A stretch of DNA of 64,000 nucleotides, from the IMG/VR virus record IMGVR_UViG_3300045988_115142. One strand, written 5' to 3'. Position 1 is the stretch's first letter; each line of letters starts with the position of its first letter. The position numbers and the translations under genes were made by a program. The notes beneath the pieces were generated by a model. The model did not search any database. It worked only from the letters and a program-made list of their open reading frames with translations, and was not told the DNA's origin. Source of the stretch: a virus. Positions 1 to 24,240 of this stretch are shown piece by piece.

Positions 1-3000
1 TCATTATATCTATCTTTCAATTCAAATACTTTTGGAGAAAGATTGATAATCTCCATACCGAATCTAGTTTTAATATCCATAGTAAGTTTCTTTAGATAGT
101 TAGTTACATCAATCAATTGATGTTTAGCTATCTTCTTACCATTGATAAAGATCATTGTATTCTCTTTAGTGATATTTCTATCAATCTTATCCATATCTAG
201 ATATAAGAATCCAGAGCTAGGAAGATAATTAATAGTACCGTTTTCATCAGAACCAGTATGGAATAATACTACAGAGAATTGACGTTGATTTTCACCATAT
301 CTAGGAATATCTGTAAGTGTAATTACACGATTATCGGAATCGATATAATATCTATTCTTATCAAGATATACTCCATCGTAGAATAACATCATGTAATCAT
401 TATAATCTACTTCAGATTTAAATAACTCTGGTAGATGGATAGTAGTTTCACCTTCAGATATACGGTTAGTGTATTCATGTTTATTTACATAAGCACCATT
501 ACCATTATATACGAAGATAAATCTTACATGTTGTCCAGGAATAAGTTTTTCATCTAATCCATCTTCAAATACAATAGCACTTCTATCCATAGTGATAGTA
601 TAATTATCAGATGGAATGAAGATACCACGCATATGAATAATGAATGGGATTTCTTTATTATTCTCTGGATATGGAATAGTGAATCTACGTTGACCTTTTT
701 GTTCAATCTTAACTTTAGCTTCATCCATAACGAATTTATTCTTATCGATAGAAGTAGATAAACTATAAGGAGTATAGTATCTATTTAAAGTTTCATAAGC
801 AAAGTATACAGTAATCTTAGTACCAGCAGGCATACCAGAATCGAAGTTAATAGAATTTCTATCTACTGTATATTTAGAAGGTTCTACATATTCACCATTA
901 GCGAATAAAACCATAGTATTCGGATTCATATCAATAGGAGAGAACCCAGGTAAGTCAACAAAGTCAGCATAAGGCATAGTTAAACTAATAGGGTAGAAGT
1001 TTATAGAGAGTACTTTATTAGAAAGATTTTCTGCATAGATAAATTCAATCTTATCACCAGTTCTATTAAAGTCTTCTCTATGCATGATTACTAACTTATC
1101 TCTAGTAATACCATAATCATTAGGATCCATTAATTTACCATTGAAGAATACCATATAAGAATCAGGTATATTTGCTTTAGGTAAAGTAATAGGATTTTCT
1201 GCTTTAGATGTAATAGTATAAGTATAATGAGAAATCTTGATATTGTTAGATTCAAGTTTCTTTTTGTCGGTACAAACTACAGCAGTTACATCAGTACCAG
1301 CTTTAACTGTATCTGTAAATATAATATGAGAACCTTCAATAGTATAAGCATTAGACTTTTGAATTTGAGAATTCTTGAATACTAATACTGAACGGTTATC
1401 GATCATATTTAAATCACCGAAGTCTACATCTGTAGTATCAGCAGCTACATTTACAGTCTTAGGTAAGTATTGGGTGGAGTTATTATCCGTAGGAATAGAA
1501 TACATATAAGGTTTAGTTGAGTAGTATGGGAATAAGAAGGTTACTTCTTCACCAATAATACACTCATCATCTTGGTCTAGGAATGTAATATACCATTTAT
1601 CCCCATCTTTATAAGTATAATAAGTTTCAGGAGATTTAAACAAACCATGTTTAAATACAGCTACAGCACCTTGAGCAGATGCATCGTAGTCTTTAAATGG
1701 TAATGGAATTTCAAAAGTAGTTTGCATATCACTAGTAGCATATGACATAATACTCTTGATAACCAAGTTATTAGTATATGATTCCAAACCCTTACCAGTA
1801 TTCATACCTAAATAGAATACTTCTACTCTATCTGTAGGTTTAACTGTCTTCATAGTATAAATAACTTTGAAGTTGATCTTAGGTTCAGATAAAGTAGGAA
1901 CTAGAGTCTTATAATAAATGCTATTCAATAAACGACCATTGATAAACAATAAGAACTTATCTTGATTATAAGCACTATTGAAATATAGTGGTAAAGAAAT
2001 AGCATTTGTTTCTTTTTTGATGTTTATCTTAGCGTATCTAAATTGGTTTACAGAACCTACATAGAGGTCTGTATTTATATATTCATCCTTAGGTAGTTTA
2101 ACCTTACCTGTCTCATAATCATATTTGATATTAAGAGGACACAAAGCATGATCACCTAGTTTATTAGTATATACTAATAACTCTTCTGGTGGAATATAAT
2201 AATCAGATACGTTTAGATATGTTTCATCTGTCTTATGTTCTTGGTCTATAGGTAATACTTCATTACGTATATTTTTAATATACACGATCTCAATGAAGTC
2301 ATTTACGCCAAGATTAGTAGGTTTGAATTTGAATGTATCGTGTTCATACACAATATCTTTATAGTACTCTGGAAGTTCATTGTTATGGAAGATCATTACA
2401 TAAGTTTCATTATGGAAGTTAGACTTACCATAAATATCTCTACTCATTGTAACCCAACCATCAGCATCCATTCGTTTTACTATATCGGTATAAGTGTATT
2501 CACAACAATGCATCGTACTATTCTTATCGAAGATAGGATCAAACTTATTCTTATCGTAGTCAAAGATATATTGAATAGAATTATTAATATTCTCTTCATA
2601 TGATAATGATGGAAGATGTTTAAAGTCGAATTCTTTTTGCATCAACTTCCTATCTATAGTATCAATCCCTGGTACATCGGTGATAGTTTCTTCAGCAGCA
2701 ATACGTCTAGCTAATACATTATTAGGGAAACGATTGATATAATCTTCTGAATCAATACCTTCATCGAAGTAAGTGACTACTGCAGATACAGGATGAGTTC
2801 TGAAGAATGGATCATCTATAGTCAATAAGTTCCCAGCATAAGTTACTACACGGTAGTATGTACTGAATTTACCATCAGGAGTAAATACAGCTACAGAACT
2901 ACGAGGTATCTTCTTCTTAGTATTAATATCCAACTTGAATTTTCTAAATTCTTGATTACGATATACTAATACTTTAGCTTTAGGATGCAATGTACCGACT

Positions 3001-3575
3001 ACGATATTACCAGTTGGGTCAAATAGACCTCGCTCATTAAATCTGAATTGAATCTTAGTACCATCTTTAGCATAACTATCTTCAGAATATGATACCTTTG
3101 TAGGAAGCATCAATATAGATACATCTTTTGGTTCATAATCGTAGTCATAACCATCAATAATAGCAGTAAGGTGTTTATTAGACTTAACCAACTTCAATTT
3201 AGACCATGGGATAAATACATCATCTACAAATAATAAGAATGGTGTGATGTATTCCTTTTCTACTGCATCTAGCATTAGACTTTCAAAGAAGTCCGGAGAA
3301 GTTCTAGAATAAACATAGTTATTCTTGATATCATATAAGTGAAGGAATAAGTTCTTACGTCTATGAAGAGTTCTATACTTACCATCTTTGAAGTGAAGTT
3401 TATCTGTACTAAAGCCAGGCTTAACAAGATAAGGAACTAAACCAACTTGTACGTTGTCTATAGCTTCTGCAGCTTGGGTACGCTTATATTCGGTGAGAGA
3501 TACTATATCGGAATAACGAGAGATCTCTTCTTCGGTATCTTTCCATTCATCTGGATTATGAACGTAGTTATCCAA
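1..3575 (-). CDS. Large repeat-built virion fibre/baseplate-like protein, C-terminus beyond window edge (>1190 aa)
   Basis: Missing from the ORF track because it runs off the window. The minus-strand frame is open from TTG at 3575 (AGGAGA 9 nt upstream; in-frame TAA at 3584-3582) down to position 3. I hand-translated it and re-checked segments near 3500, 2030, 650 and 80 without finding stops. There is no other ORF >=60 aa on this strand in 3.5 kb. At least 9 copies occur of a module like hhhF-x-[ND]-G-x(8-12)-Y-x(5-10)-I-x-F (VLVFKNSQIQKSNAYTIEGSHIIF; MVFFNGKLMDPNDYGITRDKLVIM; MVLFANGEYVEPSKYTVDRNSINF; MMLFYDGVYLDKNRYYIDSDNRVITL). Function is inferred only from repeat architecture and size. 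Confidence 0.6.
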   Translation of the reverse strand, partial: MDNYVHNPDEWKDTEEEISRYSDIVSLTEYKRTQAAEAIDNVQVGLVPYLVKPGFSTDKLHFKDGKYRTLHRRKNLFLHLYDIKNNYVYSRTSPDFFESLMLDAVEKEYITPFLLFVDDVFIPWSKLKLVKSNKHLTAIIDGYDYDYEPKDVSILMLPTKVSYSEDSYAKDGTKIQFRFNERGLFDPTGNIVVGTLHPKAKVLVYRNQEFRKFKLDINTKKKIPRSSVAVFTPDGKFSTYYRVVTYAGNLLTIDDPFFRTHPVSAVVTYFDEGIDSEDYINRFPNNVLARRIAAEETITDVPGIDTIDRKLMQKEFDFKHLPSLSYEENINNSIQYIFDYDKNKFDPIFDKNSTMHCCEYTYTDIVKRMDADGWVTMSRDIYGKSNFHNETYVMIFHNNELPEYYKDIVYEHDTFKFKPTNLGVNDFIEIVYIKNIRNEVLPIDQEHKTDETYLNVSDYYIPPEELLVYTNKLGDHALCPLNIKYDYETGKVKLPKDEYINTDLYVGSVNQFRYAKINIKKETNAISLPLYFNSAYNQDKFLLFINGRLLNSIYYKTLVPTLSEPKINFKVIYTMKTVKPTDRVEVFYLGMNTGKGLESYTNNLVIKSIMSYATSDMQTTFEIPLPFKDYDASAQGAVAVFKHGLFKSPETYYTYKDGDKWYITFLDQDDECIIGEEVTFLFPYYSTKPYMYSIPTDNNSTQYLPKTVNVAADTTDVDFGDLNMIDNRSVLVFKNSQIQKSNAYTIEGSHIIFTDTVKAGTDVTAVVCTDKKKLESNNIKISHYTYTITSKAENPITLPKANIPDSYMVFFNGKLMDPNDYGITRDKLVIMHREDFNRTGDKIEFIYAENLSNKVLSINFYPISLTMPYADFVDLPGFSPIDMNPNTMVLFANGEYVEPSKYTVDRNSINFDSGMPAGTKITVYFAYETLNRYYTPYSLSTSIDKNKFVMDEAKVKIEQKGQRRFTIPYPENNKEIPFIIHMRGIFIPSDNYTITMDRSAIVFEDGLDEKLIPGQHVRFIFVYNGNGAYVNKHEYTNRISEGETTIHLPELFKSEVDYNDYMMLFYDGVYLDKNRYYIDSDNRVITLTDIPRYGENQRQFSVVLFHTGSDENGTINYLPSSGFLYLDMDKIDRNITKENTMIFINGKKIAKHQLIDVTNYLKKLTMDIKTRFGMEIINLSPKVFELKDRYN

Positions 3576-3612
3576 TTTCTGTTATCTCCTTTCATAAAAT
3601 AAAGCAAAGAAA

Positions 3613-3638
3613 GATGTAGGGTAATTATACCCTACATC
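3613..3638 (-). terminator. Intrinsic terminator of the minus-strand gene 3647..4576
   Basis: GATGTAGGGTA-ATTA-TACCCTACATC. On the minus strand it is followed by TTTCTTTGCTTT. Confidence 0.75.
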
Positions 3639-3646
3639 ACCTTTAG

Positions 3647-4706: not shown

Positions 4707-5048
4707 ATGGCTAATTTATTAAAAGAGACTCTAGAAGTATTAGATAATTTAGGGATAAAAGAAGAAGAAGTAATATACGTTGTTAATAGAGAGAAACCTA
4801 AAGATTGTAAGTTTATGACTTGGGAAATGTTTAAGGATATAGCTAGATATAAAACATACGATGAAGGTCTTGGTACTGTTGAGGTTAATACCGATATTAT
4901 CATCTATACTGTCGACTATATTCTATACCGTCATGAATATGATGGGGCAGAAAGATGGGAAGAAATCCCAACACCAGAACACATGCACGAATTATTATCC
5001 GGTAAATCACCAGAAATATTCTCTATTGATGGTCATGATTTTTACTAA
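4707..5048 (+). CDS. Hypothetical protein
   Basis: Track ORF 4671..5048. The ATG at 4707 has TAGGAGA upstream at good spacing, so the MANLLKETLE... form is preferred. No motif recognised. Confidence 0.7.
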   Translation: MANLLKETLEVLDNLGIKEEEVIYVVNREKPKDCKFMTWEMFKDIARYKTYDEGLGTVEVNTDIIIYTVDYILYRHEYDGAERWEEIPTPEHMHELLSGKSPEIFSIDGHDFY

Positions 5049-5105: not shown

Positions 5106-5870
5106 ATGGTCTTAAATAGTGATTTAACAAAATCTTATATCAAAATTATTGAAGATATTGTATTACAAGATAAAGATTTTAAAAGTAGTTACGAATGTAA
5201 CGGTATCAAAGTCCCAAGAGTAACATCAGTTCTTGGGAGAACTATCCATGATGATTTTTTGATGTATTGGGCTAATAGTTTAGGATTTAAACGTCAAAGT
5301 TATAGAAAAGTATTAAACCATGCAGCGAATATTGGTACAGAAGTACACAATTACCTTGCTAAACTTATAACTAATTCACCAAATCTAGAACCAGGTCATG
5401 ATTTGATGCAGGAATCGGTTAATTGTATTGAATCGTTTGAAACTTGGTGGAGAATGCTTAATGACAAGCACAAAGTAACGGTATTAGGTTCTGAAAAGAC
5501 TCTAACTTGTCCATACTTTGGTGGTACTTATGATTTACTACTATCAGTAGATGACAGAATCTTCTTAATGGACTTTAAGACTTCTAATCAAGTATCTTTT
5601 AAGTACTTCTTACAATTAGCAGCTTATAGATATCTTTTATGGTATTGTGAAGGTATTGAAGTTGATGGATTTACTATACTTCGAATGGATAAACGTGATA
5701 GTGTATTTGAAGTAGTTCATTGTGATATGAATATACCAGAACAAGCTGAATTTATGGAATATTGTCATCAGATGTTCTTTAGTCTATTGACTTCCTATAA
5801 CTATATCCTAAATATGGAGAATAAGTTCAAAGATATTTACAAGGAGCTAAAATGGTCGAACGCATTTTAA
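5106..5870 (+). CDS. PD-(D/E)xK nuclease, RecB/Cas4-like exonuclease family
   Basis: Ordered motifs typical of this family: RVTSVL near the N-terminus, GTEVH, GGTYDLL (motif II Asp), MDFKTS (D/E-x-K) and QLAAYRYL (QxxxY). Start 5106 (GGGAGGA upstream) is preferred over track start 5070. Confidence 0.65.
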   Translation: MVLNSDLTKSYIKIIEDIVLQDKDFKSSYECNGIKVPRVTSVLGRTIHDDFLMYWANSLGFKRQSYRKVLNHAANIGTEVHNYLAKLITNSPNLEPGHDLMQESVNCIESFETWWRMLNDKHKVTVLGSEKTLTCPYFGGTYDLLLSVDDRIFLMDFKTSNQVSFKYFLQLAAYRYLLWYCEGIEVDGFTILRMDKRDSVFEVVHCDMNIPEQAEFMEYCHQMFFSLLTSYNYILNMENKFKDIYKELKWSNAF

Positions 5871-6379
5871 TAAGATATATAGTCGGTTATTCTATGACTA
5901 TACAAAAACTAAGATGGTTTGCTCCTATTCTTTACTCTATAGTATTATGGTTCTATACTCTTAGCTTCAAATCCACTATAAAGCGATTATTTAAGAGAAA
6001 TAATCTCTATTGGGCAGCATTATGGACTTTTGAGTTAAGTAAAAATAATACTAAGACACATAGCCTATATCTAAATAAACCTATTGGTAGTAAGCTTAAG
6101 TATAATATGATTAGGTTTGTAGGACCAAGTTATAAAGTAACTAAAGATGATATGTACTTTATCGATATCGGTATATTTAGAAACCGTTTGATGAGATATA
6201 AGGTCTGTCCTTATGATGATGATAGAGTTTCTTGGTCATTATATGAATTAAAACCGAATAGGTATATAGATTCAGGTAATTATAGATTACCTCAATTAGA
6301 ATCTGAAATAACCAATGAGTTAGTAGAAATATGTGTACAACTATTCTTAGAACAAGCTAATGAAATTTATAATAAGTAA
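5852..6379 (+). CDS. Hypothetical protein with N-terminal hydrophobic segment
   Basis: Track ORF with AAGGAG 6 nt upstream of the ATG. Overlaps the upstream gene by 19 nt. Hydrophobic stretch LRWFAPILYSIVLWFYTLSF. Followed by a strong terminator. Confidence 0.7.
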   Translation: MVERILIRYIVGYSMTIQKLRWFAPILYSIVLWFYTLSFKSTIKRLFKRNNLYWAALWTFELSKNNTKTHSLYLNKPIGSKLKYNMIRFVGPSYKVTKDDMYFIDIGIFRNRLMRYKVCPYDDDRVSWSLYELKPNRYIDSGNYRLPQLESEITNELVEICVQLFLEQANEIYNK

Positions 6380-6395
6380 TTTTGCGAAAAAGCCT

Positions 6396-6419
6396 CCGTT
6401 ACCAGATATCTGGTAACGG
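6396..6419 (+). terminator. Intrinsic terminator (perfect 24-nt palindrome CCGTTACCAGAT/ATCTGGTAACGG plus T-run)
   Basis: Perfect inverted repeat read directly, followed by GACTTTTATC. Lies 17 nt after the stop of 5852..6379. Confidence 0.8.
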
Positions 6420-6442
6420 GACTTTTATCATAAAATTCTCTT

Positions 6443-6460
6443 CCGGTTTTTCTAAACCGG
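6443..6460 (+). other. Second small hairpin CCGGTTT-TTCT-AAACCGG
   Basis: 7-bp stem with a 4-nt loop, read directly. No clear T-run, so the role is unclear. Confidence 0.5.
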
Positions 6461-6516
6461 CAAAATAAACCAAGAACCAAGAATTGACTTATAAAGTTTG
6501 TAGTTAATTCTATAGA

Positions 6517-6546
6517 TTGAGATAATCTACAGTGTGTATTTATAAT
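6517..6546 (+). promoter_or_regulatory. Candidate sigma-70/SigA-type promoter (TTGAGA - 18 nt - TATAAT) pointing into the ORF-free region
   Basis: -35 TTGAGA at 6517-6522 (5/6 to TTGACA) and consensus TATAAT at 6541-6546 with an 18-nt spacer. It lies downstream of the terminator. Such matches can occur by chance in an AT-rich genome. Confidence 0.4.
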
Positions 6547-6862
6547 GTATTTAGCTTTTTTCTGATTTGTCTTATATATGATTTTGATAAGTTTACAGTT
6601 TATCTAAAATAAATAAGAAATGTGGTTAAGTCTAATTCTATTACATCATCTTATTCCATATCAAAAATATAAAAGGTAATGTGATGTTTTGCGAATATGA
6701 ATAAAATGAAGGGTTCTTGGTTATGAATTATTAGAAGTATAACAGGGTAATCGTTTAGATTGTTGTTTGACGTATTATAAATGAAAGATGGTCTAAATCG
6801 TTACCACAATTATATTCTAATTATTTATATGTAAATTGATGTAATAAAAAATAAAGTAGGGT

Positions 6863-6886
6863 GGTCTACTCCATATGGAGTAGACC
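6863..6886. other. Perfect 24-nt palindrome GGTCTACTCCAT/ATGGAGTAGACC inside the ORF-free region
   Basis: Read directly. Not followed by a T-run on the + strand. Confidence 0.6.
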
Positions 6887-6901
6887 GAGTACACACATCA
6901 T

Positions 6902-7021
6902 TAGTTTGGAGCAGCAATGTACGCTTAAGGAAGAAGATACTAGTTTGGCATTAAACGTACAGTATTAAGAGTCATGTTAAGTAGTGTAAGACAGAAAGGT
7001 CCACAAGGAGCTTTAGTTTGG
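6902..7021 (+). repeat. Three direct copies of TAGTTTGG (6902, 6941, 7014)
   Basis: Exact 8-mers within 120 nt. An inverted partial copy CAAACTAAAG at 7030-7039 pairs with the third copy. Confidence 0.6.
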
Positions 7022-7339
7022 CCATCAAACAAACTAAAGTATTATATTATCTATAAGGAAAGTTACTATAAACGAACAACAGTAGTTATTTAAGCATAGG
7101 AGTTTTTATAGACCTGATTTTAAATATGTTAATCAACTAAAAACCATATTTAAAACCAACACGAACGGTCTATATCATGTCAAGTATCTTTTTAGTCAGC
7201 AGGCTAAAAACGAATATAAACTAATCACCAAATTTATATTCTTGTAAGTTCACATTTGTTATGGCTGTGTAAAACAAAATGTGACTGATTAAGGTATATA
7301 TTTTATAAGAGGAAACAAAACTAGTATCTTTCTTCCTTA
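6926..7339 (+). ncRNA. Candidate structured RNA domain (~410 nt): 21-bp closing helix around five local hairpins; class unknown
   Basis: 6926-6946 (TAAGGAAGAAGATACTAGTTT) pairs with 7318-7339 (AAACTAGTATCTTTCTTCCTTA), with one bulged T. Enclosed hairpins: 7011-7020/7030-7039 (10 bp); 7107-7114/7167-7174 (8 bp) containing 7118-7128/7145-7155 (11 bp); 7189-7195/7204-7210 (7 bp); 7213-7220/7233-7240 (8 bp); 7250-7257/7277-7284 (8 bp). There are stops in all frames. Strand is assumed from flanking genes and the upstream promoter. Confidence 0.4.
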
Positions 7340-7420
7340 CAATATAGTTCTCAAATTAAAATGTAAAGTTGCTCTAACACGACCATAAGAGACACTTTAA
7401 GACAATTTTAGGGGGATAAT

Positions 7421-8545
7421 ATGCAAGATTTTTTCGTTGAAGCCCATATATCGGATATACATTTTGGAGCTATGGATCCAAAAGAGCAATATAAACTGTT
7501 AAAAGACCAATTCATAGATCGGCTTATGACCCTACCGATTCTAGATATAGTATCGGTTAATGGTGATATTTTTCATCATAAATTTATGGCTAACTCTGAG
7601 TCTGTTTCGTTAGCTTGTTATTTTATTTCTGATTTGATCAAAGTATGTGCAATCAAAAATGCTACATTGTTAATTATTGCCGGTACTTACTCCCATGATG
7701 CGGATCAAATAAAATTATTCTACCCTATGGCTGAACAAGCTATAGCAAATGGGACAGACGTTCGGATTATCGAAGAAGTTAAATTCGAAACAGTCAAAGG
7801 TAAAAGAATTCTATGTATTCCAGAATTATATGGAAAAGGTTCTGAATACTATGAGCAATTCTTATACCAATCTGGATTCTATGATGCATGTTATATGCAT
7901 GGTACATTCGTAGGTGCTATCTTTGGTAAAGATATACCTAATTTGAATTCAGATAGAGAACCAGTATTCTATATGGATCATTTCAGACACTGTGCTGGTC
8001 CAATTATATCTGGTCATGTGCATACACCTGGGTGTTATGCAAAACATTTCTACTATTGTGGTTCTCCATATAGATGGCAATTTGGTGAGGAAGAAGAAAA
8101 AGGATTCATCATCATGATGCAAGATATGAGAACTCGACAATATGCCGTTCATTATGAACCAATCATATCTGATAAGTATATTACTATCAATATGGATTCC
8201 ATGATTAATGGAGACCCTAAAGATATGATAGCATATATTGCTCAAACTATGAAAGAAGAAGATATTAAATATCTTCGAGTTCGATTTACTGAGAGCAATC
8301 CAGAGAATTTAGAGATTATTCAGACATTTTATCGGAATAATCCTAACGTAAAAATCGAAACTAAAATTCATAATGACAATATAGTACAGAATCTTCAAGA
8401 GATTCAAAACGAGTACGAAAATTATGATTATCTATTCGATAAGAATATTACGCCGGAGAATAAATTGGTTCGATATATTAATCAATCCGAGGGAAGCGTA
8501 TTTTTGACTTACGAAGATTTAATCGGAATCTTACAAAATATTTAA
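7421..8545 (+). CDS. Mre11/SbcD-like metallophosphoesterase nuclease (T4 gp47-like)
   Basis: Calcineurin-like phosphoesterase motifs in canonical order: ISDIHFG (DxH), VNGDIFH (GD), IIAGTYSHD (GNHD variant), MHGTF and ISGHVHTPG (GHxH). SD GGGGGA upstream. Confidence 0.7.
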   Translation: MQDFFVEAHISDIHFGAMDPKEQYKLLKDQFIDRLMTLPILDIVSVNGDIFHHKFMANSESVSLACYFISDLIKVCAIKNATLLIIAGTYSHDADQIKLFYPMAEQAIANGTDVRIIEEVKFETVKGKRILCIPELYGKGSEYYEQFLYQSGFYDACYMHGTFVGAIFGKDIPNLNSDREPVFYMDHFRHCAGPIISGHVHTPGCYAKHFYYCGSPYRWQFGEEEEKGFIIMMQDMRTRQYAVHYEPIISDKYITINMDSMINGDPKDMIAYIAQTMKEEDIKYLRVRFTESNPENLEIIQTFYRNNPNVKIETKIHNDNIVQNLQEIQNEYENYDYLFDKNITPENKLVRYINQSEGSVFLTYEDLIGILQNI

Positions 8546-19736: not shown

Positions 19737-19764
19737 CTTAATTTCGCAAAAGGAGGAATTTGTT

Positions 19765-21546: not shown

Positions 21547-24240
21547 ATGATTAAACATATTGAAAAACGTGACGGGAGTATTGTTGAATTTGACCGTACT
21601 AAAATTTTAAATGCAATTCTTAATGCTATGAATTCTGTGGGTGCTGTAGATGAAGAAGCAGCCAACAATACAACCACAGCTGTAGTTCGTAATTTAAATA
21701 AATTAGATTCCGATACAGCTGCTGTAGAAGATGTACAAGATTTAGTTGAAGTTCAATTAATGAAGAAATATCCAGACGTTGCTCGTGAATATATCACATA
21801 CCGTAAACGTCGTAATGATATTCGTACAGCTAAAACAGAAACAATGAAAGAAGTTATGAGTATTCTTAAATGCGAAGACGTCAAAAACTCTAATGCTAAC
21901 GTTGATGAATACTCCTTTGGTGGTCGTAAGAAAGAAGCATCTGATGTAATTCAAAAAGAAATTGCATTGAATACTCTTATCGACCCAGACATTGCTGAAG
22001 CTCACCGCAAAGGTATTCTTTACATTCATGACTTATCTGAATATGCAGTAGGTCTTCATAACTGTTTGAATGCCGATATTGCTTATTGCTTAGCTCATGG
22101 TTTCGAAGCTCGTAACGGTGGTGTCCGTCCAGCTAATTCCTTTGCAACAGCATGTCAATTAATTGCAGTTATTTTCCAAATTCAATCCCAATGTCAATTC
22201 GGTGGTATTGCAACTACTAAGATTGACTTTGACTTAGCTCCATATGTACGTATTTCCTTCTTGAAACATTTCAAACGTGGTTTACGTTACTTTGGTACAG
22301 GTGTTGGTAACGATTATGATACATTCGTATCTAAATATGGTAAAGATGTAGTCAATACAGCATCCATCGAAGCTGATTGGAATATCTTCAAAGACTTCTG
22401 TACTCCAGCATACATTTATGCTTTAGAAGAACTCGAACGCGAGGGTAAACAAGGTGCTCAAGCACTTTATCACAACTTAAATACTTTAGAATCTCGTGCT
22501 GGTTCTCAAGTACCATTCACTTCCATTAACTTTGGTTTAGATACTTCTTGGGAAGGTCGTAAAGCTACACAATGGATGATGAATGCATCTCTTGATGGTA
22601 TTGGTATTAACCATACTACTTCCATCTTCCCTATTTCCATCTTTGTTTATAAGAAAGATGTAAATGACCGTCCTGGTACAGACAACTATGATTTGAAGAA
22701 ACTTGCTATCAAATCTTTAACTAAACGTATTTATCCTAACTTCGTAAATGCTGATTGGCAATCCAATGTTCCAGATGTACACCCAATTCGTATTGTAAAT
22801 AAAACAGTATTCCATCCAATTGAATCTGAAGTAACTTTACGTATTGACCATCATGTTGGCGAAACTAAAGTATTTGATCCATTGAACTTCAAGAAAACTT
22901 TAGTAAGCGATTATGACAAACTTACTTTGAAACGATTGATTAATTCTATTCCTGAAGAATATGTATCTGCTCCAGATGAAGATGGTATCCAAGTAATAGA
23001 TCTTCGCTTCACTGATAGACGTTATTTGATTAAAGATTCAACTTCTAAATTCAATAAATACAATACTGATCGTAATGATCATTATACTAAATTGAATTGG
23101 TTAGCTGTAGATACAGAAACTAATGAAGTAGCAATCACCACAGAATCTTTCAATTACGATATCGAATGTACTGAAGAAGAAGGTCCTTACAAAGCTAAAG
23201 TACTTCGTACAATGCAACTCCCTAAACCTGAATACAATAACGATACAGAAATGTCTACCATGGGTTGCAGAACGCTAGTTGGTTATGACTTACATGGTAT
23301 GGGTTATCAAAAGACTGGTCGTGGTAACTGTACACCTGTAACTATTAACTTAGCTCGTATTGGTATTCGTCATGGTATTTGCTTAGGTGAACGTAAAGAA
23401 GCTGATATTGATGGTTTCTTCAAAGAACTTGACGAAATCTTGGAAATGTGTGAACGTGAACTTCTTAAACGTTTCGAACACATCTGTTCTCAAGATATTC
23501 GTTCTGGTTTCTTCACTTACCATAACCATGTAGCTGCTGATACCGAAGCTGCTCTTGAGAAGGGTTCCATTTATGAAACAATGAGACACTTCTCTCAAGC
23601 ATTAGGTTACATTGGTGTGGCTAATATGTGCTATGCTATGTTTGGTAAATACCATAACCAAGATAAAGACGTATTGAAATTCGCTGTATCTGTAGTTAAA
23701 CATATTGCAGACTATGCTGATGAATGCAAGAAACGTCATAACTTGAACTTCGCAGCATATGCTACTCCTGCAGAATCAACTTGTTTAACTTTAGCTTCCA
23801 AACTTCAAAAAGAATTTGGTAAGATTAAAGGTGTATGTGATCGTGAGTACTTAACTAACTCCCATCATGTTCCAGTATATGAAAACATTTCCGTTCGTGA
23901 TAAAATTGATACAGAAGCTGAATTCTCCATCTATCCAACAGCTGGTTGTATAATGTACGCTGAAATGTCCTCTGGTGTAATTGGTAATCCTAGAGCAGTA
24001 GAAAAGATTATTGATTATGCTATGGCTGACACTCGTGTTCCATACTTCGCTATCAACTTCCCAATCGATAGCTGTGATGATTGTGGATACACTGGTGAAA
24101 TCAATACAGATACTTGCCCAGTTTGTGGTTCTACTAATATCAACCGTTTACGTCGTGTAACTGGTTATATTACTACAGACTATCGCAAATTCAACAAAGG
24201 TAAATTCTGTGAAGTTAATGACCGAGTAAAACACATTTAA
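21547..24240 (+). CDS. nrdD: Anaerobic (class III) ribonucleoside-triphosphate reductase
   Basis: N-terminal ATP-cone (IEKRDGSIVEFDRTKILNAI), active-site MGCR, C-terminal Zn ribbon CDDCGY...CPVCGS and glycyl-radical motif RRVTGY. Confidence 0.9.
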   Translation: MIKHIEKRDGSIVEFDRTKILNAILNAMNSVGAVDEEAANNTTTAVVRNLNKLDSDTAAVEDVQDLVEVQLMKKYPDVAREYITYRKRRNDIRTAKTETMKEVMSILKCEDVKNSNANVDEYSFGGRKKEASDVIQKEIALNTLIDPDIAEAHRKGILYIHDLSEYAVGLHNCLNADIAYCLAHGFEARNGGVRPANSFATACQLIAVIFQIQSQCQFGGIATTKIDFDLAPYVRISFLKHFKRGLRYFGTGVGNDYDTFVSKYGKDVVNTASIEADWNIFKDFCTPAYIYALEELEREGKQGAQALYHNLNTLESRAGSQVPFTSINFGLDTSWEGRKATQWMMNASLDGIGINHTTSIFPISIFVYKKDVNDRPGTDNYDLKKLAIKSLTKRIYPNFVNADWQSNVPDVHPIRIVNKTVFHPIESEVTLRIDHHVGETKVFDPLNFKKTLVSDYDKLTLKRLINSIPEEYVSAPDEDGIQVIDLRFTDRRYLIKDSTSKFNKYNTDRNDHYTKLNWLAVDTETNEVAITTESFNYDIECTEEEGPYKAKVLRTMQLPKPEYNNDTEMSTMGCRTLVGYDLHGMGYQKTGRGNCTPVTINLARIGIRHGICLGERKEADIDGFFKELDEILEMCERELLKRFEHICSQDIRSGFFTYHNHVAADTEAALEKGSIYETMRHFSQALGYIGVANMCYAMFGKYHNQDKDVLKFAVSVVKHIADYADECKKRHNLNFAAYATPAESTCLTLASKLQKEFGKIKGVCDREYLTNSHHVPVYENISVRDKIDTEAEFSIYPTAGCIMYAEMSSGVIGNPRAVEKIIDYAMADTRVPYFAINFPIDSCDDCGYTGEINTDTCPVCGSTNINRLRRVTGYITTDYRKFNKGKFCEVNDRVKHI

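What the first reader, a model, noticed from the sequence alone, without database searches (positions are those of the whole stretch)
6380..7420. About 1 kb with no ORF in any frame, packed with helices, in an otherwise wall-to-wall coding genome
Elsewhere in the window intergenic spacers run from a few nt to about 290 nt. Here roughly 1040 nt carry stops in all six frames, and the track has no ORF of 60 aa or more. The order of elements is as follows. First come the upstream gene's terminator (6396-6419 plus T-run) and a second small hairpin (6443-6460). Next is a tandem ACCAAGA-ACCAAGA at 6468-6483, whose first part (6468-6478 AACCAAGAACC) is complementary to 6712-6722 (GGTTCTTGGTT). A near-consensus rightward promoter follows (TTGAGA 6517-6522, 18 nt, TATAAT 6541-6546). 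Then come a 14-15 bp imperfect helix 6746-6759/6792-6805, a perfect 24-nt palindrome 6863-6886, and the closed multi-hairpin domain 6926-7339 (separate finding). The SD of the Mre11-like gene begins only about 70 nt after the last helix. So this is either a free-standing large structured RNA of several hundred nt or an exceptionally long structured leader. Large ornate RNAs such as GOLLD and ROOL are known mostly from phages and prophages of low-GC Gram-positive bacteria, which makes this class plausible. I cannot match any consensus by eye, so it may equally be a new class.
Basis: partly seen in the sequence, partly recalled or inferred. Interest (0 to 1): 0.8.

Follow-up and report, generated by a model that had tools for sequence, protein, structure and literature searches.

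The report
Leftward noncoding RNA gene in jumbo phage
The 1-kb gene-free stretch is real and partly conserved, and the signals in it point to one or two non-coding RNA genes read leftwards (opposite to the neighbouring genes) by the phage's own late RNA polymerase, of no known RNA family and with no expression data yet.

Summary

The phage is an AR9/PBS1-like jumbo phage with its own RNA polymerases, so the sigma-70-like rightward promoter is probably irrelevant. Its -35 is not conserved among strains. Overall folding energy is no better than in coding DNA.

Four things are special:
- Diversity in 6700-7420 is 3-10 times lower than at neighbouring synonymous sites.
- A 21-bp long-range stem (6926-6946 / 7318-7339) is invariant in 26 strains. 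It recurs with different, still complementary sequence in two related clades.
- Read on the minus strand, the motif abutting this stem fits the AR9 late-promoter consensus. It is perfect in four related clades with gaps of 380 nt or more, one base off here, and absent in clades with short gaps.
- U-rich terminator tails and G.U-compatible hairpin variants occur on the minus strand only.

Best model (confidence about 0.5): a leftward late ncRNA of about 490 nt with a terminal stem, 7338 to about 6845, possibly continuing or followed by a second unit to 6396. Function is unknown.

The parts
6380..7420 (.). ORF-free spacer between a 175-aa gene (5852-6379) and the Mre11/SbcD-like gene (7421-8545)
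6396..6419 (.). Perfect 24-nt palindrome, a bidirectional intrinsic terminator. The plus-strand tail is GACTTTTATCA. The minus-strand tail (6395->6380) is AGGCTTTTTCGCAAAA, the tail consensus seen after other terminators of this phage.
6443..6460 (-). 7-bp hairpin CCGGTTT/AAACCGG. Among 26 strains every one-sided change is A.C on the plus strand, which is G.U on the minus strand (9 strains). Three strains are fully compensated (CCAG/CTGG).
   Evidence: Read from the alignment. The counts are blurred by a 1-nt loop indel.
6468..6483 (.). Tandem AACCAAGAA x2, left arm of long-range stem S1, in a block with pi 0.003
6500..6699 (.). Fast-evolving spacer (pi 0.02-0.16), 23-25% GC, containing the sigma-70-like hexamers 6517-6546
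6712..6722 (.). GGTTCTTGGTT, right arm of S1; invariant in 26 strains
6746..6805 (.). Imperfect hairpin H (5+2+5 bp plus three apical G.T pairs that exist only on the plus strand)
6756..6767 (-). AACAACAATCTA, a perfect AR9-type late motif on the minus strand. It is a possible promoter of a second leftward unit, 6756->6396. Weak evidence, since the motif is common by chance.
6843..6886 (-). Perfect palindrome P (6863-6886) of the phage's terminator class. There is no T-run on the plus strand. On the minus strand it is followed by ACCCUACUUUAUUUUUUAUU. It is the proposed terminator of the leftward RNA.
6926..6946 (.). Left arm of long-range stem S2 (TAAGGAAGAAGATACTAGTTT); invariant in 26 strains
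6947..7317 (-). Interior of the S2-closed domain, holding several hairpins. Blocks 6940-7099 and 7180-7339 have pi 0-0.02. Hairpin 7100-7179 is dimorphic. One compensatory double change occurs in each of two hairpins (7128/7145 and 7253/7281).
7043..7057 (+). Imperfect AR9-type early-promoter-like element TATATTAT-CTATAA-G. Its flanks deviate from the window's nine good copies.
7318..7339 (.). Right arm of S2 (AAACTAGTATCTTTCTTCCTTA); invariant in 26 strains
7338..7349 (-). AACT-ATATTG-TA on the minus strand, the AR9 late-promoter consensus AACA-N6-TA(+1) with one mismatch. The predicted start A7338 is the second base of the S2 arm. The block is invariant in 26 strains.
7376..7387 (+). AACA-CGACCA-TA, a late-type promoter of the Mre11-like gene, 34 nt before its ATG. 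It is conserved in L031 (AACACTGTCGTA). It stands back to back with the minus-strand promoter, with predicted starts 49 nt apart.

Best explanation
The gap is a leftward (minus-strand) non-coding transcription unit of an AR9/PBS1-like jumbo phage.

Proposed mechanism:
- The phage's non-virion (late) RNA polymerase starts at about A7338, from the late-type promoter AACTATATTGTA (7349->7338). This promoter stands back to back with the late promoter of the Mre11-like gene.
- The first 20 nt of the RNA pair with a segment about 390 nt downstream (stem S2). The RNA therefore has a flush, base-paired 5' end closing a multi-hairpin body.
- About 40 nt after the stem comes terminator-type hairpin P with a U-rich tail. 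This gives an RNA of about 490 nt (7338 to about 6845).
- Read-through, or a second unit starting near 6756 and closed by the shorter stem S1, reaches hairpin 6460->6443 and the consensus terminator 6419->6396. These shield the convergent upstream gene.

A paired 5' end plus a 3' terminator hairpin is the usual build of a stable, free-standing RNA. I therefore propose that the product acts in trans as a stable late RNA, as a protein-binding scaffold or decoy. Its body evolves fast between clades but is constrained within the species.

Shown: absence of coding capacity, purifying selection, conservation and compensatory change of S2, placement of promoter-like and terminator-like signals, and strand-specific wobble variants.

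Inferred: that the unit is transcribed at all, the exact ends, stability, and any function.
For: 1. Identity of the phage and its signals. Gene order matches AR9 and the Staphylococcus jumbo phages. An RNA polymerase beta-like gene is present. AR9 early promoters are AAATATATATTAT-6N-G and late promoters AACA-6N-TA/G (PMC5312081). The early type recurs upstream of plus-strand genes here: 9 hits, all on the plus strand, against 2.2 expected. The perfect late type sits 42 and 48 nt upstream of two of the minus-strand protein-coding units in the window, and 34 nt upstream of the Mre11-like gene.

2. Conserved position of a leftward late motif. Every related clade with a gap of 380 nt or more has a late-type motif on the minus strand 70-135 nt before the Mre11 ATG, pointing into the gap. 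It is perfect in L034 (AACATATCTATA), L038 (AACATATTTATA), L136 (AACATAATAATA) and L137 (AACATTTTAATA). It reads AACT in the window and in L031. All predicted RNAs start purine-rich. Four clades with gaps of 162 nt or less have none, and neither does the 328-nt gap of the more distant L119.

3. Stem S2. It matches 21 of 22 positions and is invariant in 26 strains. L034 has 22 of 24 at the same place, with 0 of 200 shuffles reaching that score. L031 has 15 of 17, with 3 of 200 shuffles. The sequences differ between clades but the arms stay complementary. In all three the arm begins at the predicted start site.

4. Termination signals on the minus strand.
- Hairpin P has a U-rich tail on the minus strand only, and the same holds in L031.
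- The 6396 terminator carries the phage's tail consensus CUUUUUCGCAAAA on the minus strand.
- In hairpin 6443-6460 all one-sided variants (9 of 26 strains) are G.U on the minus strand and A.C on the plus strand, and 3 strains are compensated.

5. Selection. Pi is 0-0.02 in 6860-7099 and 7180-7419. Adjacent third-codon positions have pi 0.044-0.136, and first and second positions 0.004-0.019.

6. Definition of the fold. The minus-strand fold is better defined: ensemble diversity is 0.13 per nt on the minus strand and 0.22 on the plus strand. Coding controls average 0.21, with 4 of 48 at or below 0.133. The model RNA has z -5.4 and its centroid is close to the MFE structure.
Against: - There is no expression data of any kind.
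- The promoter in the window has AACT instead of AACA. The relaxed motif is common by chance: six copies on the minus strand of the L031 gap alone. The consensus is borrowed from a Bacillus phage.
- The U-run after P begins 7 nt past the stem, further than in this phage's canonical terminators.
- G exceeds C on the plus strand across 6500-7100.
- Helix H and hairpin 7189-7210 contain G.T pairs that exist only on the plus strand.
- Within the domain, predicted paired positions are not less variable than unpaired ones: 33 of 250 against 24 of 176.
- Only two single compensatory events support internal hairpins.
- The arms of S2 show no wobble variants at all in 26 strains. That fits sequence-specific recognition as well as it fits pairing.
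- Mismatches in the S2 equivalents of L031 and L034 give no strand preference.
- L136, L137 and L038 have no terminal stem or only a weak one.
- Overall MFE z-scores do not differ from coding DNA.
Confidence: 0.5

Rival explanations
1. Rightward (plus-strand) structured RNA or long structured leader of the Mre11-helicase operon. Read-through from the upstream operon, or the weak early-like promoter at 7043, would give a long 5' UTR. S2 might then act as an RNase III processing stem.
For: - The plus strand has slightly lower total MFE (-252.9 against -238.3 kcal/mol).
- G exceeds C on the plus strand.
- G.T pairs in helix H and hairpin 7189-7210 exist only on the plus strand, and helix H also has a T.G variant.
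- An early-like element lies at 7043-7057.
- In AR9 the Mre11-like gene lies inside an early operon and also has its own late promoter.
Against: - No canonical early or late promoter on the plus strand lies between 6420 and 7376.
- The sigma-70-like site is in the fastest-evolving block and its -35 is not conserved.
- A strong terminator precedes the gap on the plus strand.
- Hairpin P has no U-tail on the plus strand.
- A transcript starting at 7057 would lack the left arm of S2.
- The motif abutting S2 makes sense as a promoter only on the minus strand.
- The variants of hairpin 6443-6460 are mismatches on the plus strand.
- The plus-strand ensemble is no better defined than coding sequence.
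Confidence: 0.12
2. A DNA-level element, not an RNA. It could be a replication origin or regulator-binding region next to the replication module, with AACCAAGAA x3 and TAGTTTGG x3 as binding sites. Alternatively it could be an invertible promoter segment flanked by inverted repeats.
For: - The position is immediately upstream of the Mre11-like, DnaB-like and PIF1-like genes.
- The block 6500-6700 is AT-rich.
- Short motifs are enriched in direct and inverted copies.
- The S1 and S2 arms are invariant without a single wobble variant. This suits protein recognition, or arm homogenisation by recombination.
- A related clade carries 1.2-2.1 kb arrays of units about 41 nt long, roughly four helical turns, at the same locus.
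Against: - All 30 contigs of this phage are colinear across both repeats, so no inverted orientation was seen.
- No recombinase is among the neighbouring genes.
- The interior of the L034 repeat holds no promoter motif.
- The GC-skew turn lies 2-3 kb to the left, at the strand switch.
- Arms 190-370 bp apart would not extrude as a cruciform.
- This reading does not explain the strand-specific wobble variants or the promoter and terminator placement.
Confidence: 0.15
3. Transcription matters but the RNA product does not. A divergent late promoter fires leftwards to insulate or tune the Mre11 late promoter, or to form an R-loop. The gap is the run-off zone, ended by terminators that protect the upstream gene.
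For: - The promoter position is conserved across six clades, while body sequence and length (0.3-0.95 kb) are not.
- There are tandem minus-strand terminators at the left end.
- The interior 6500-6699 evolves neutrally.
Against: - The body 6860-7339 is 3-10 times less diverse than neighbouring synonymous sites.
- S2 is kept by compensatory change in three clades.
- Neither is expected if only the act of transcription counted.
Confidence: 0.13
4. Decaying remnant of lost genes or a mobile insertion (MITE-like, with terminal inverted repeats), with no present function beyond the terminator and the Mre11 promoter.
For: - The locus is plastic. Gap length runs from -25 to 2113 nt among relatives, and some carry an unrelated 373-aa gene there.
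- Dimorphic cassettes suggest recombination.
Against: - There is no residual protein similarity.
- There is no second copy in 64 kb and no evident target-site duplication.
- Diversity is low relative to synonymous sites.
- The inverted-repeat arms stay complementary while diverging between clades, which dead terminal repeats would not do.
Confidence: 0.07

Closest known systems
Late (non-virion RNA polymerase) transcription units of Bacillus phage AR9, including its non-coding and antisense late transcripts (PMC5312081)
   Same: The gene neighbourhood is the same: Mre11/SbcD-like then DnaB-like helicase. The Mre11-like gene has its own AACA-N6-TA late promoter. Late promoters that drive transcripts on the opposite strand are reported in AR9, including antisense RNA at its Mre11-like gene g002.
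   Different: Here the leftward unit lies wholly in a dedicated 1-kb gene-free spacer and overlaps no gene. AR9 has only about 100 nt plus a small gene upstream of g002. The window's promoter has one non-consensus base. Nothing here has been measured.
Large structured RNAs of phages and prophages (GOLLD, ROOL) and other large bacterial ncRNAs (OLE, HEARO, raiA)
   Same: Several hundred nucleotides, many hairpins, phage-borne, low-GC genome, function not obvious.
   Different: There is no match to any of their covariance models on either strand. Conservation is confined to one species-level clade plus positional analogues. Covariation support is limited to one long-range stem and two single events.
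Stable RNAs closed by a 5'-3' terminal stem (6S RNA, SRP RNA, RNase P RNA; viral decoys such as adenovirus VA RNA). Comparison from general knowledge, not tested.
   Same: In the model the first nucleotides pair with a distal segment to give a flush terminal stem, followed by a 3' hairpin. This architecture protects both ends.
   Different: There is no rod with a central bubble as in 6S RNA, no sequence or model match, and the size and interior are unrelated.
rRNA-operon and phage T7 RNase III processing stems. Comparison from general knowledge, not tested.
   Same: A duplex of about 20 bp formed by sequences hundreds of nucleotides apart is the classic RNase III substrate.
   Different: In the favoured model the stem sits at the primary 5' end, so no excision is needed. 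Cleavage is untested.

Membership tests
Rfam families (GOLLD, ROOL, HEARO/OMEGA, OLE, raiA, group I/II introns, 6S, tmRNA, RNase P and all others of release 15) | Score at or above the family's gathering threshold against its covariance model | tested here: not met
   There were 0 hits in the 64-kb window at gathering score. In 6300-7500 only five hits with E of 1.8-8 appeared, to snoRNA and lncRNA models. There were 0 hits in seven related loci.
tRNA / tmRNA cluster | Cloverleaf genes detectable by ARAGORN | tested here: not met
Protein-coding gene (standard or recoded) | Open frame, possibly with one reassigned stop codon; indels in multiples of three; homologues | tested here: not met
   frame-breaking indels
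AR9-type late promoter (non-virion RNA polymerase) | AACA-N6-T(A/G), with the last base as the start site, upstream of late transcription units | tested here: inconclusive
   The window has AACT-ATATTG-TA on the minus strand, one mismatch. The motif is perfect at the matching position in L034, L038, L136 and L137. The consensus is validated in the window only by its position before two minus-strand genes and the Mre11-like gene. Activity cannot be tested here.
AR9-type early promoter (virion RNA polymerase) | Extended AT-rich element (here (TA/TG)TATAWTAT), 6 nt, then G, usually within ATG or TTG | tested here: not met
   The only candidate in the gap, 7043-7057, deviates in the two upstream bases and at the start region.
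Intrinsic terminators of this phage | 24-26-nt perfect palindrome with an ATAT centre, followed within 0-3 nt by a T-rich tail | tested here: met
   6396-6419 meets it on both strands. 6863-6886 has the hairpin, but its T-rich tail is on the minus strand only and starts 7 nt after the stem, so it meets the definition only partly.
Sigma-70 promoter driving a rightward RNA | Conserved -35 and -10 hexamers in a phage that uses host RNA polymerase | tested here: not met
   The hexamers are present. The -35 is replaced in 7 of 26 strains. Promoter-like sites are only mildly above shuffles, 17 against 11.3. AR9-like phages transcribe independently of host RNA polymerase.
Invertible promoter segment (inverton) | Inverted repeats flanking a promoter; both orientations present in populations; a recombinase | tested here: not met
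   Repeats are present, but 30 of 30 contigs have the same orientation. No recombinase is among the neighbours. Read-level data were not available.
MITE / transposon remnant | Terminal inverted repeats, target-site duplication, multiple copies | tested here: not met
   It is single-copy in 64 kb, and no duplication is visible at the arm borders. The rest of the roughly 255-kb genome was not searched.
Iteron-type replication origin | Arrays of initiator-binding repeats, an AT-rich unwinding element, origin activity | not testable with these tools
   Short motifs are enriched and an AT-rich block is present. The skew turn is elsewhere. Activity is unknown.

The most novel reading that the evidence does not exclude
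AR9-like jumbo phages of the human microbiome carry, just upstream of their Mre11-helicase module, a position-conserved but fast-evolving locus for late, leftward non-coding RNAs. In this phage the product would be a structured RNA of about 490 nt (perhaps about 940 nt) with a terminal stem, and a new class of large phage RNA. In two or three sister clades there are shorter analogues. The 1.2-2.1-kb arrays of degenerate 41-nt repeats in another clade at the same locus are probably rightward, so they may or may not be related. The RNA might act as a stable decoy or scaffold during late infection.
Probability: 0.3. Interest if true: 0.75.

Novelty: new variant of a known kind. Interest (0 to 1): 0.55.

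Why it matters
This phage is common. Its exact Mre11-like protein is indexed in 199 blocks of the public assembly collection, and the samples are human-associated. Phages of the AR9/phiKZ type run their own transcription.

Very little is known about non-coding RNAs in such phages. A 2026 review says only that phiKZ expresses some.

A conserved late RNA gene with a defined promoter, terminal stem and terminator would be a concrete, testable entry point. Its ends and strand are predicted to the nucleotide. It sits back to back with the promoter of a replication and recombination gene. Related clades offer natural variants: no gap, 0.3-kb units, 1-kb units, and repeat arrays. If it proves to be only a transcriptional buffer, that still clarifies how these genomes insulate convergent and divergent units.

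Tried and rejected
- Known RNA families: rejected.
- tRNA or tmRNA: rejected.
- Similarity to deposited phage genomes: none by blastn.
- Stop-codon recoding: rejected. I briefly suspected it when 1-3646 also seemed ORF-free. That region is in fact a giant gene running off the window start.
- Decayed copy of the 373/377-aa genes that sit upstream of Mre11 in some relatives: no similarity.
- Small proteins: no family hits.
- Sequence homology between the gaps of different clades: none by blastn or nhmmer. Only the arms, the promoter-proximal motif and the palindrome flanks can be aligned by eye.
- Thermodynamic exceptionality: rejected against coding controls.
- Stem-versus-loop variability within the domain: no difference.
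- Inverted orientation of the repeat-flanked segments: none in 30 contigs.
- The motif ATAG-N4-8-AAATTA as a plus-strand promoter class: not enriched. It was reinterpreted as the minus-strand late motif.
- A covariance model of the whole domain was not built. The domain exceeds the 400-column limit and within-clade variation is too low.
- Literature: no description of such an RNA was found.
Full report
**What the window is.** The window comes from a jumbo phage of about 255 kb with about 30% GC, found in many human-associated metagenomes.

- Gene order around the finding is: a giant Laminin_G-type gene and a 309-aa virion-protein gene on the minus strand, then a PD-(D/E)XK nuclease, a 175-aa gene, the gap, an Mre11/SbcD-like gene, a DnaB-like helicase and a PIF1-like helicase.
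- This order matches Bacillus phage AR9/PBS1 and the Staphylococcus jumbo phages.
- The phage encodes an RNA polymerase beta-like subunit.
- AR9 transcribes its genome with two phage polymerases. Early promoters are AAATATATATTAT-6N-G and late promoters are AACA-6N-TA/G (PMC5312081).
- The early type is clearly used here. TATAWTAT-N5-TG occurs 9 times, all on the plus strand, most in spacers just upstream of genes, against 2.2 expected.
- The late type sits 42 and 48 nt upstream of two of the minus-strand coding units of the window.

**The observation.** The gap 6380-7420 is truly free of genes.

- The longest ORF is 39 aa.
- Recoding of a stop codon does not rescue a frame.
- Gene callers found nothing there in ten more contigs.
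- The small ORFs hit no family and are broken by indels between strains.
- The claim of unusual foldability fails. The gap's MFE z-score is -5.0, inside the range of twelve coding controls with a median of about -4.5. Local windows are ordinary.

**Population data.** I collected 30 contigs of the same phage species.

- All are colinear with the window over the gap.
- In a 26-sequence alignment, diversity is patchy.
- Positions 6420-6459 and 6500-6699 evolve at or above the synonymous rate, with pi of 0.02-0.16.
- The blocks 6380-6419, 6460-6499, 6700-6739, 6860-7099 and 7180-7419 have pi of 0-0.02.
- Third-codon positions in the flanking genes have pi of 0.044-0.136. First and second positions have 0.004-0.019.
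- The right two thirds of the gap are therefore under purifying selection, and the left-centre is spacer.
- The sigma-70-like promoter lies in the spacer. Its -35 hexamer is replaced in 7 of 26 strains.

**Comparison with relatives.** The Mre11-like protein has a large family of homologues. I fetched the upstream region in many clades.

- Synteny is kept but the spacer length varies widely.
- It is -25 to 162 nt in many clades.
- It is 328-450 nt in L034-36, L038, L119, L136 and L137, 977 nt in L031, and 1.2-2.1 kb in the L066/L117 clade.
- The spacers share no similarity detectable by BLAST.
- Three local features are shared, described in the next three sections.

**Shared feature 1: a long-range stem.**

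- The window's inverted repeat S2 (6926-6946 / 7318-7339) matches 21 of 22 positions and is invariant in 26 strains.
- L034 has a counterpart at the same place, 22 of 24, with 0 of 200 shuffles reaching that score.
- L031 has one too, 15 of 17, with 3 of 200 shuffles.
- The arm sequences differ between clades but stay complementary. The left arm is purine-rich and the right arm pyrimidine-rich.
- L038 has only a weak version. L136 and L137 have none.

**Shared feature 2: a leftward late promoter.**

- The motif that abuts the right arm puzzled me on the plus strand ((A/T)TATAG...AAATTA).
- On the minus strand it reads as an AR9-type late promoter.
- It is AACT-ATATTG-TA in the window and AACT-ATATCA-TA in L031.
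- It is perfect in four clades: AACA-TATCTA-TA in L034, AACA-TATTTA-TA in L038, AACA-TAATAA-TA in L136 and AACA-TTTTAA-TA in L137.
- In all six clades it lies 70-135 nt before the Mre11 ATG and points into the spacer. The predicted RNAs all start purine-rich.
- Where a terminal stem exists, the RNA starts on the first bases of the arm.
- Four clades with spacers of 162 nt or less lack the motif, as does the more distant L119 with a 328-nt gap.
- The Mre11-like gene has its own plus-strand late motif (AACACGACCATA, 7376-7387), conserved in L031. The two promoters therefore stand back to back.

**Shared feature 3: terminators that work leftwards.**

- This phage ends genes with 24-26-nt perfect palindromes with an ATAT centre, often a TACCCAATATTGGGTA core, followed by a T-rich tail.
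- Palindrome 6863-6886 belongs to this class. It has no T-run on the plus strand. On the minus strand it is followed by ACCCUACUUUAUUUUUUAUU, and L031 shows the same arrangement.
- The terminator at 6396-6419 carries, on the minus strand, the exact tail CUUUUUCGCAAAA that follows plus-strand terminators at 19742 and 34813.
- Hairpin 6443-6460 gives the clearest strand signal. Among 26 strains, all one-sided changes (three kinds, 9 strains) are A.C on the plus strand, which is G.U on the minus strand. Three strains carry the compensated CCAG/CTGG form.

**The model.** A late RNA starts at about A7338 and runs leftwards.

- Its first 20 nt pair with 6946-6926.
- Hairpin P follows 40 nt later, giving about 490 nt.
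- The fold of this RNA has z -5.4, and its centroid is almost identical to the MFE structure.
- Ensemble diversity on the minus strand is 0.13 per nt, against 0.22 on the plus strand and 0.21 +/- 0.05 in coding controls.
- Transcription evidently reaches the left end as well. This happens either by read-through or from a second unit that starts at the perfect late motif 6767->6756 and is closed by stem S1 (6722-6712 / 6478-6468). Both S1 arms sit in near-invariant blocks around a neutral interior.
- I rate the second unit as weak, because the motif is frequent by chance.

**Weaknesses.**

- Nothing is known about expression.
- The window's promoter is one base off consensus.
- P's U-run is displaced.
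- G exceeds C on the plus strand in 6500-7100.
- Some hairpins have plus-strand-only G.T pairs.
- Stems are not less variable than loops inside the domain.
- Internal hairpins are supported by only two single compensatory events.
- The complete invariance of the S2 arms would also fit protein recognition of DNA.
- I therefore keep four rivals open: a DNA-level element, transcription without a functional product, a plus-strand leader, and decayed filler.

**Known families.** There is no Rfam match on either strand. I found no published description. The nearest known things are AR9's late transcription units, including its opposite-strand late transcripts, and, by architecture only, stable RNAs closed by a terminal stem.

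**Verdict.** The finding is real and worth follow-up, but not as first described. It is not a rightward GOLLD/ROOL-like giant or a leader. Most probably it is a leftward, late, free-standing non-coding RNA gene of a new family, in a locus that hosts varied non-coding DNA across this phage group.

Noticed in passing
L066:380-2470, L070, L079, L114 (about 2.0-2.1 kb) and L117:1300-2420 (about 1.2 kb): In a related clade (Mre11 52% identical) the spacer upstream of Mre11 is an array of about 25-45 highly degenerate units. The units have a period of 38-42 nt and share only the core A-nn-TCTATA-N9-10-AATG(T/C)A. CTAT[AG] occurs about 60 times in about 2.1 kb of L066, several-fold above a rough base-composition expectation (my estimate, not computed). 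In L117 the array ends in a plus-strand intrinsic terminator just before the Mre11 promoter. No ORFs, tRNAs or Rfam hits were found. Nature unknown: a promoter-like array, protein-binding iterons, or a repeat RNA.
   Followed up: partly
window 19711, 28117, 30392, 34783, 36946, 48409, 56609, 62493, 63915 and others: The phage's terminators are perfect 24-26-nt palindromes that often share the sequence core TACCCAATATTGGGTA. Some share the tail TTTCGCAAAA. Conservation goes beyond what a hairpin needs, so sequence-specific recognition or spread of a repeat element is possible.
   Followed up: partly
window 5073, 11586, 14454, 16142, 24245, 32541, 39260, 44066, 60827 (+ strand): AR9-type early promoters ((TA/TG)TATAWTAT-N4-(A/T)TG), most in spacers just upstream of plus-strand genes (three lie at gene boundaries). 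This is the same consensus as the early promoter annotated at AR9 47-59.
   Followed up: yes
window 1-3646 (- strand): A giant gene (Laminin_G_3-type protein in relatives, over 1,000-2,100 aa) runs off the window start, so the ORF listing does not list it. The region only looks non-coding.
   Followed up: yes
window 7100-7179 and 6500-6540, 6646-6692: Dimorphic cassettes. Two sharply different haplotypes, including a 10-nt indel and clustered substitutions, segregate among otherwise near-identical strains. This suggests recombination with a diverged lineage.
   Followed up: partly
L005/L010 (same contig IMGVR_UViG_3300006832_000004) and L039: These contigs carry the locus twice in opposite orientation, or as a mirror image around about position 4900. 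They are most likely assembly artefacts (hairpin contigs).
   Followed up: no
window 21547-24240: The 897-aa NrdD-like anaerobic ribonucleotide reductase matches its family in two separate stretches (residues 3-409 and 568-897). This leaves about 160 residues unmatched, possibly an insertion such as an intein or extra domain.
   Followed up: no
L032:3785-4906, L033:88-1209: In one related clade (Mre11 68% identical) an unrelated 373-aa gene of unknown function occupies the position directly upstream of Mre11, in place of the spacer.
   Followed up: partly
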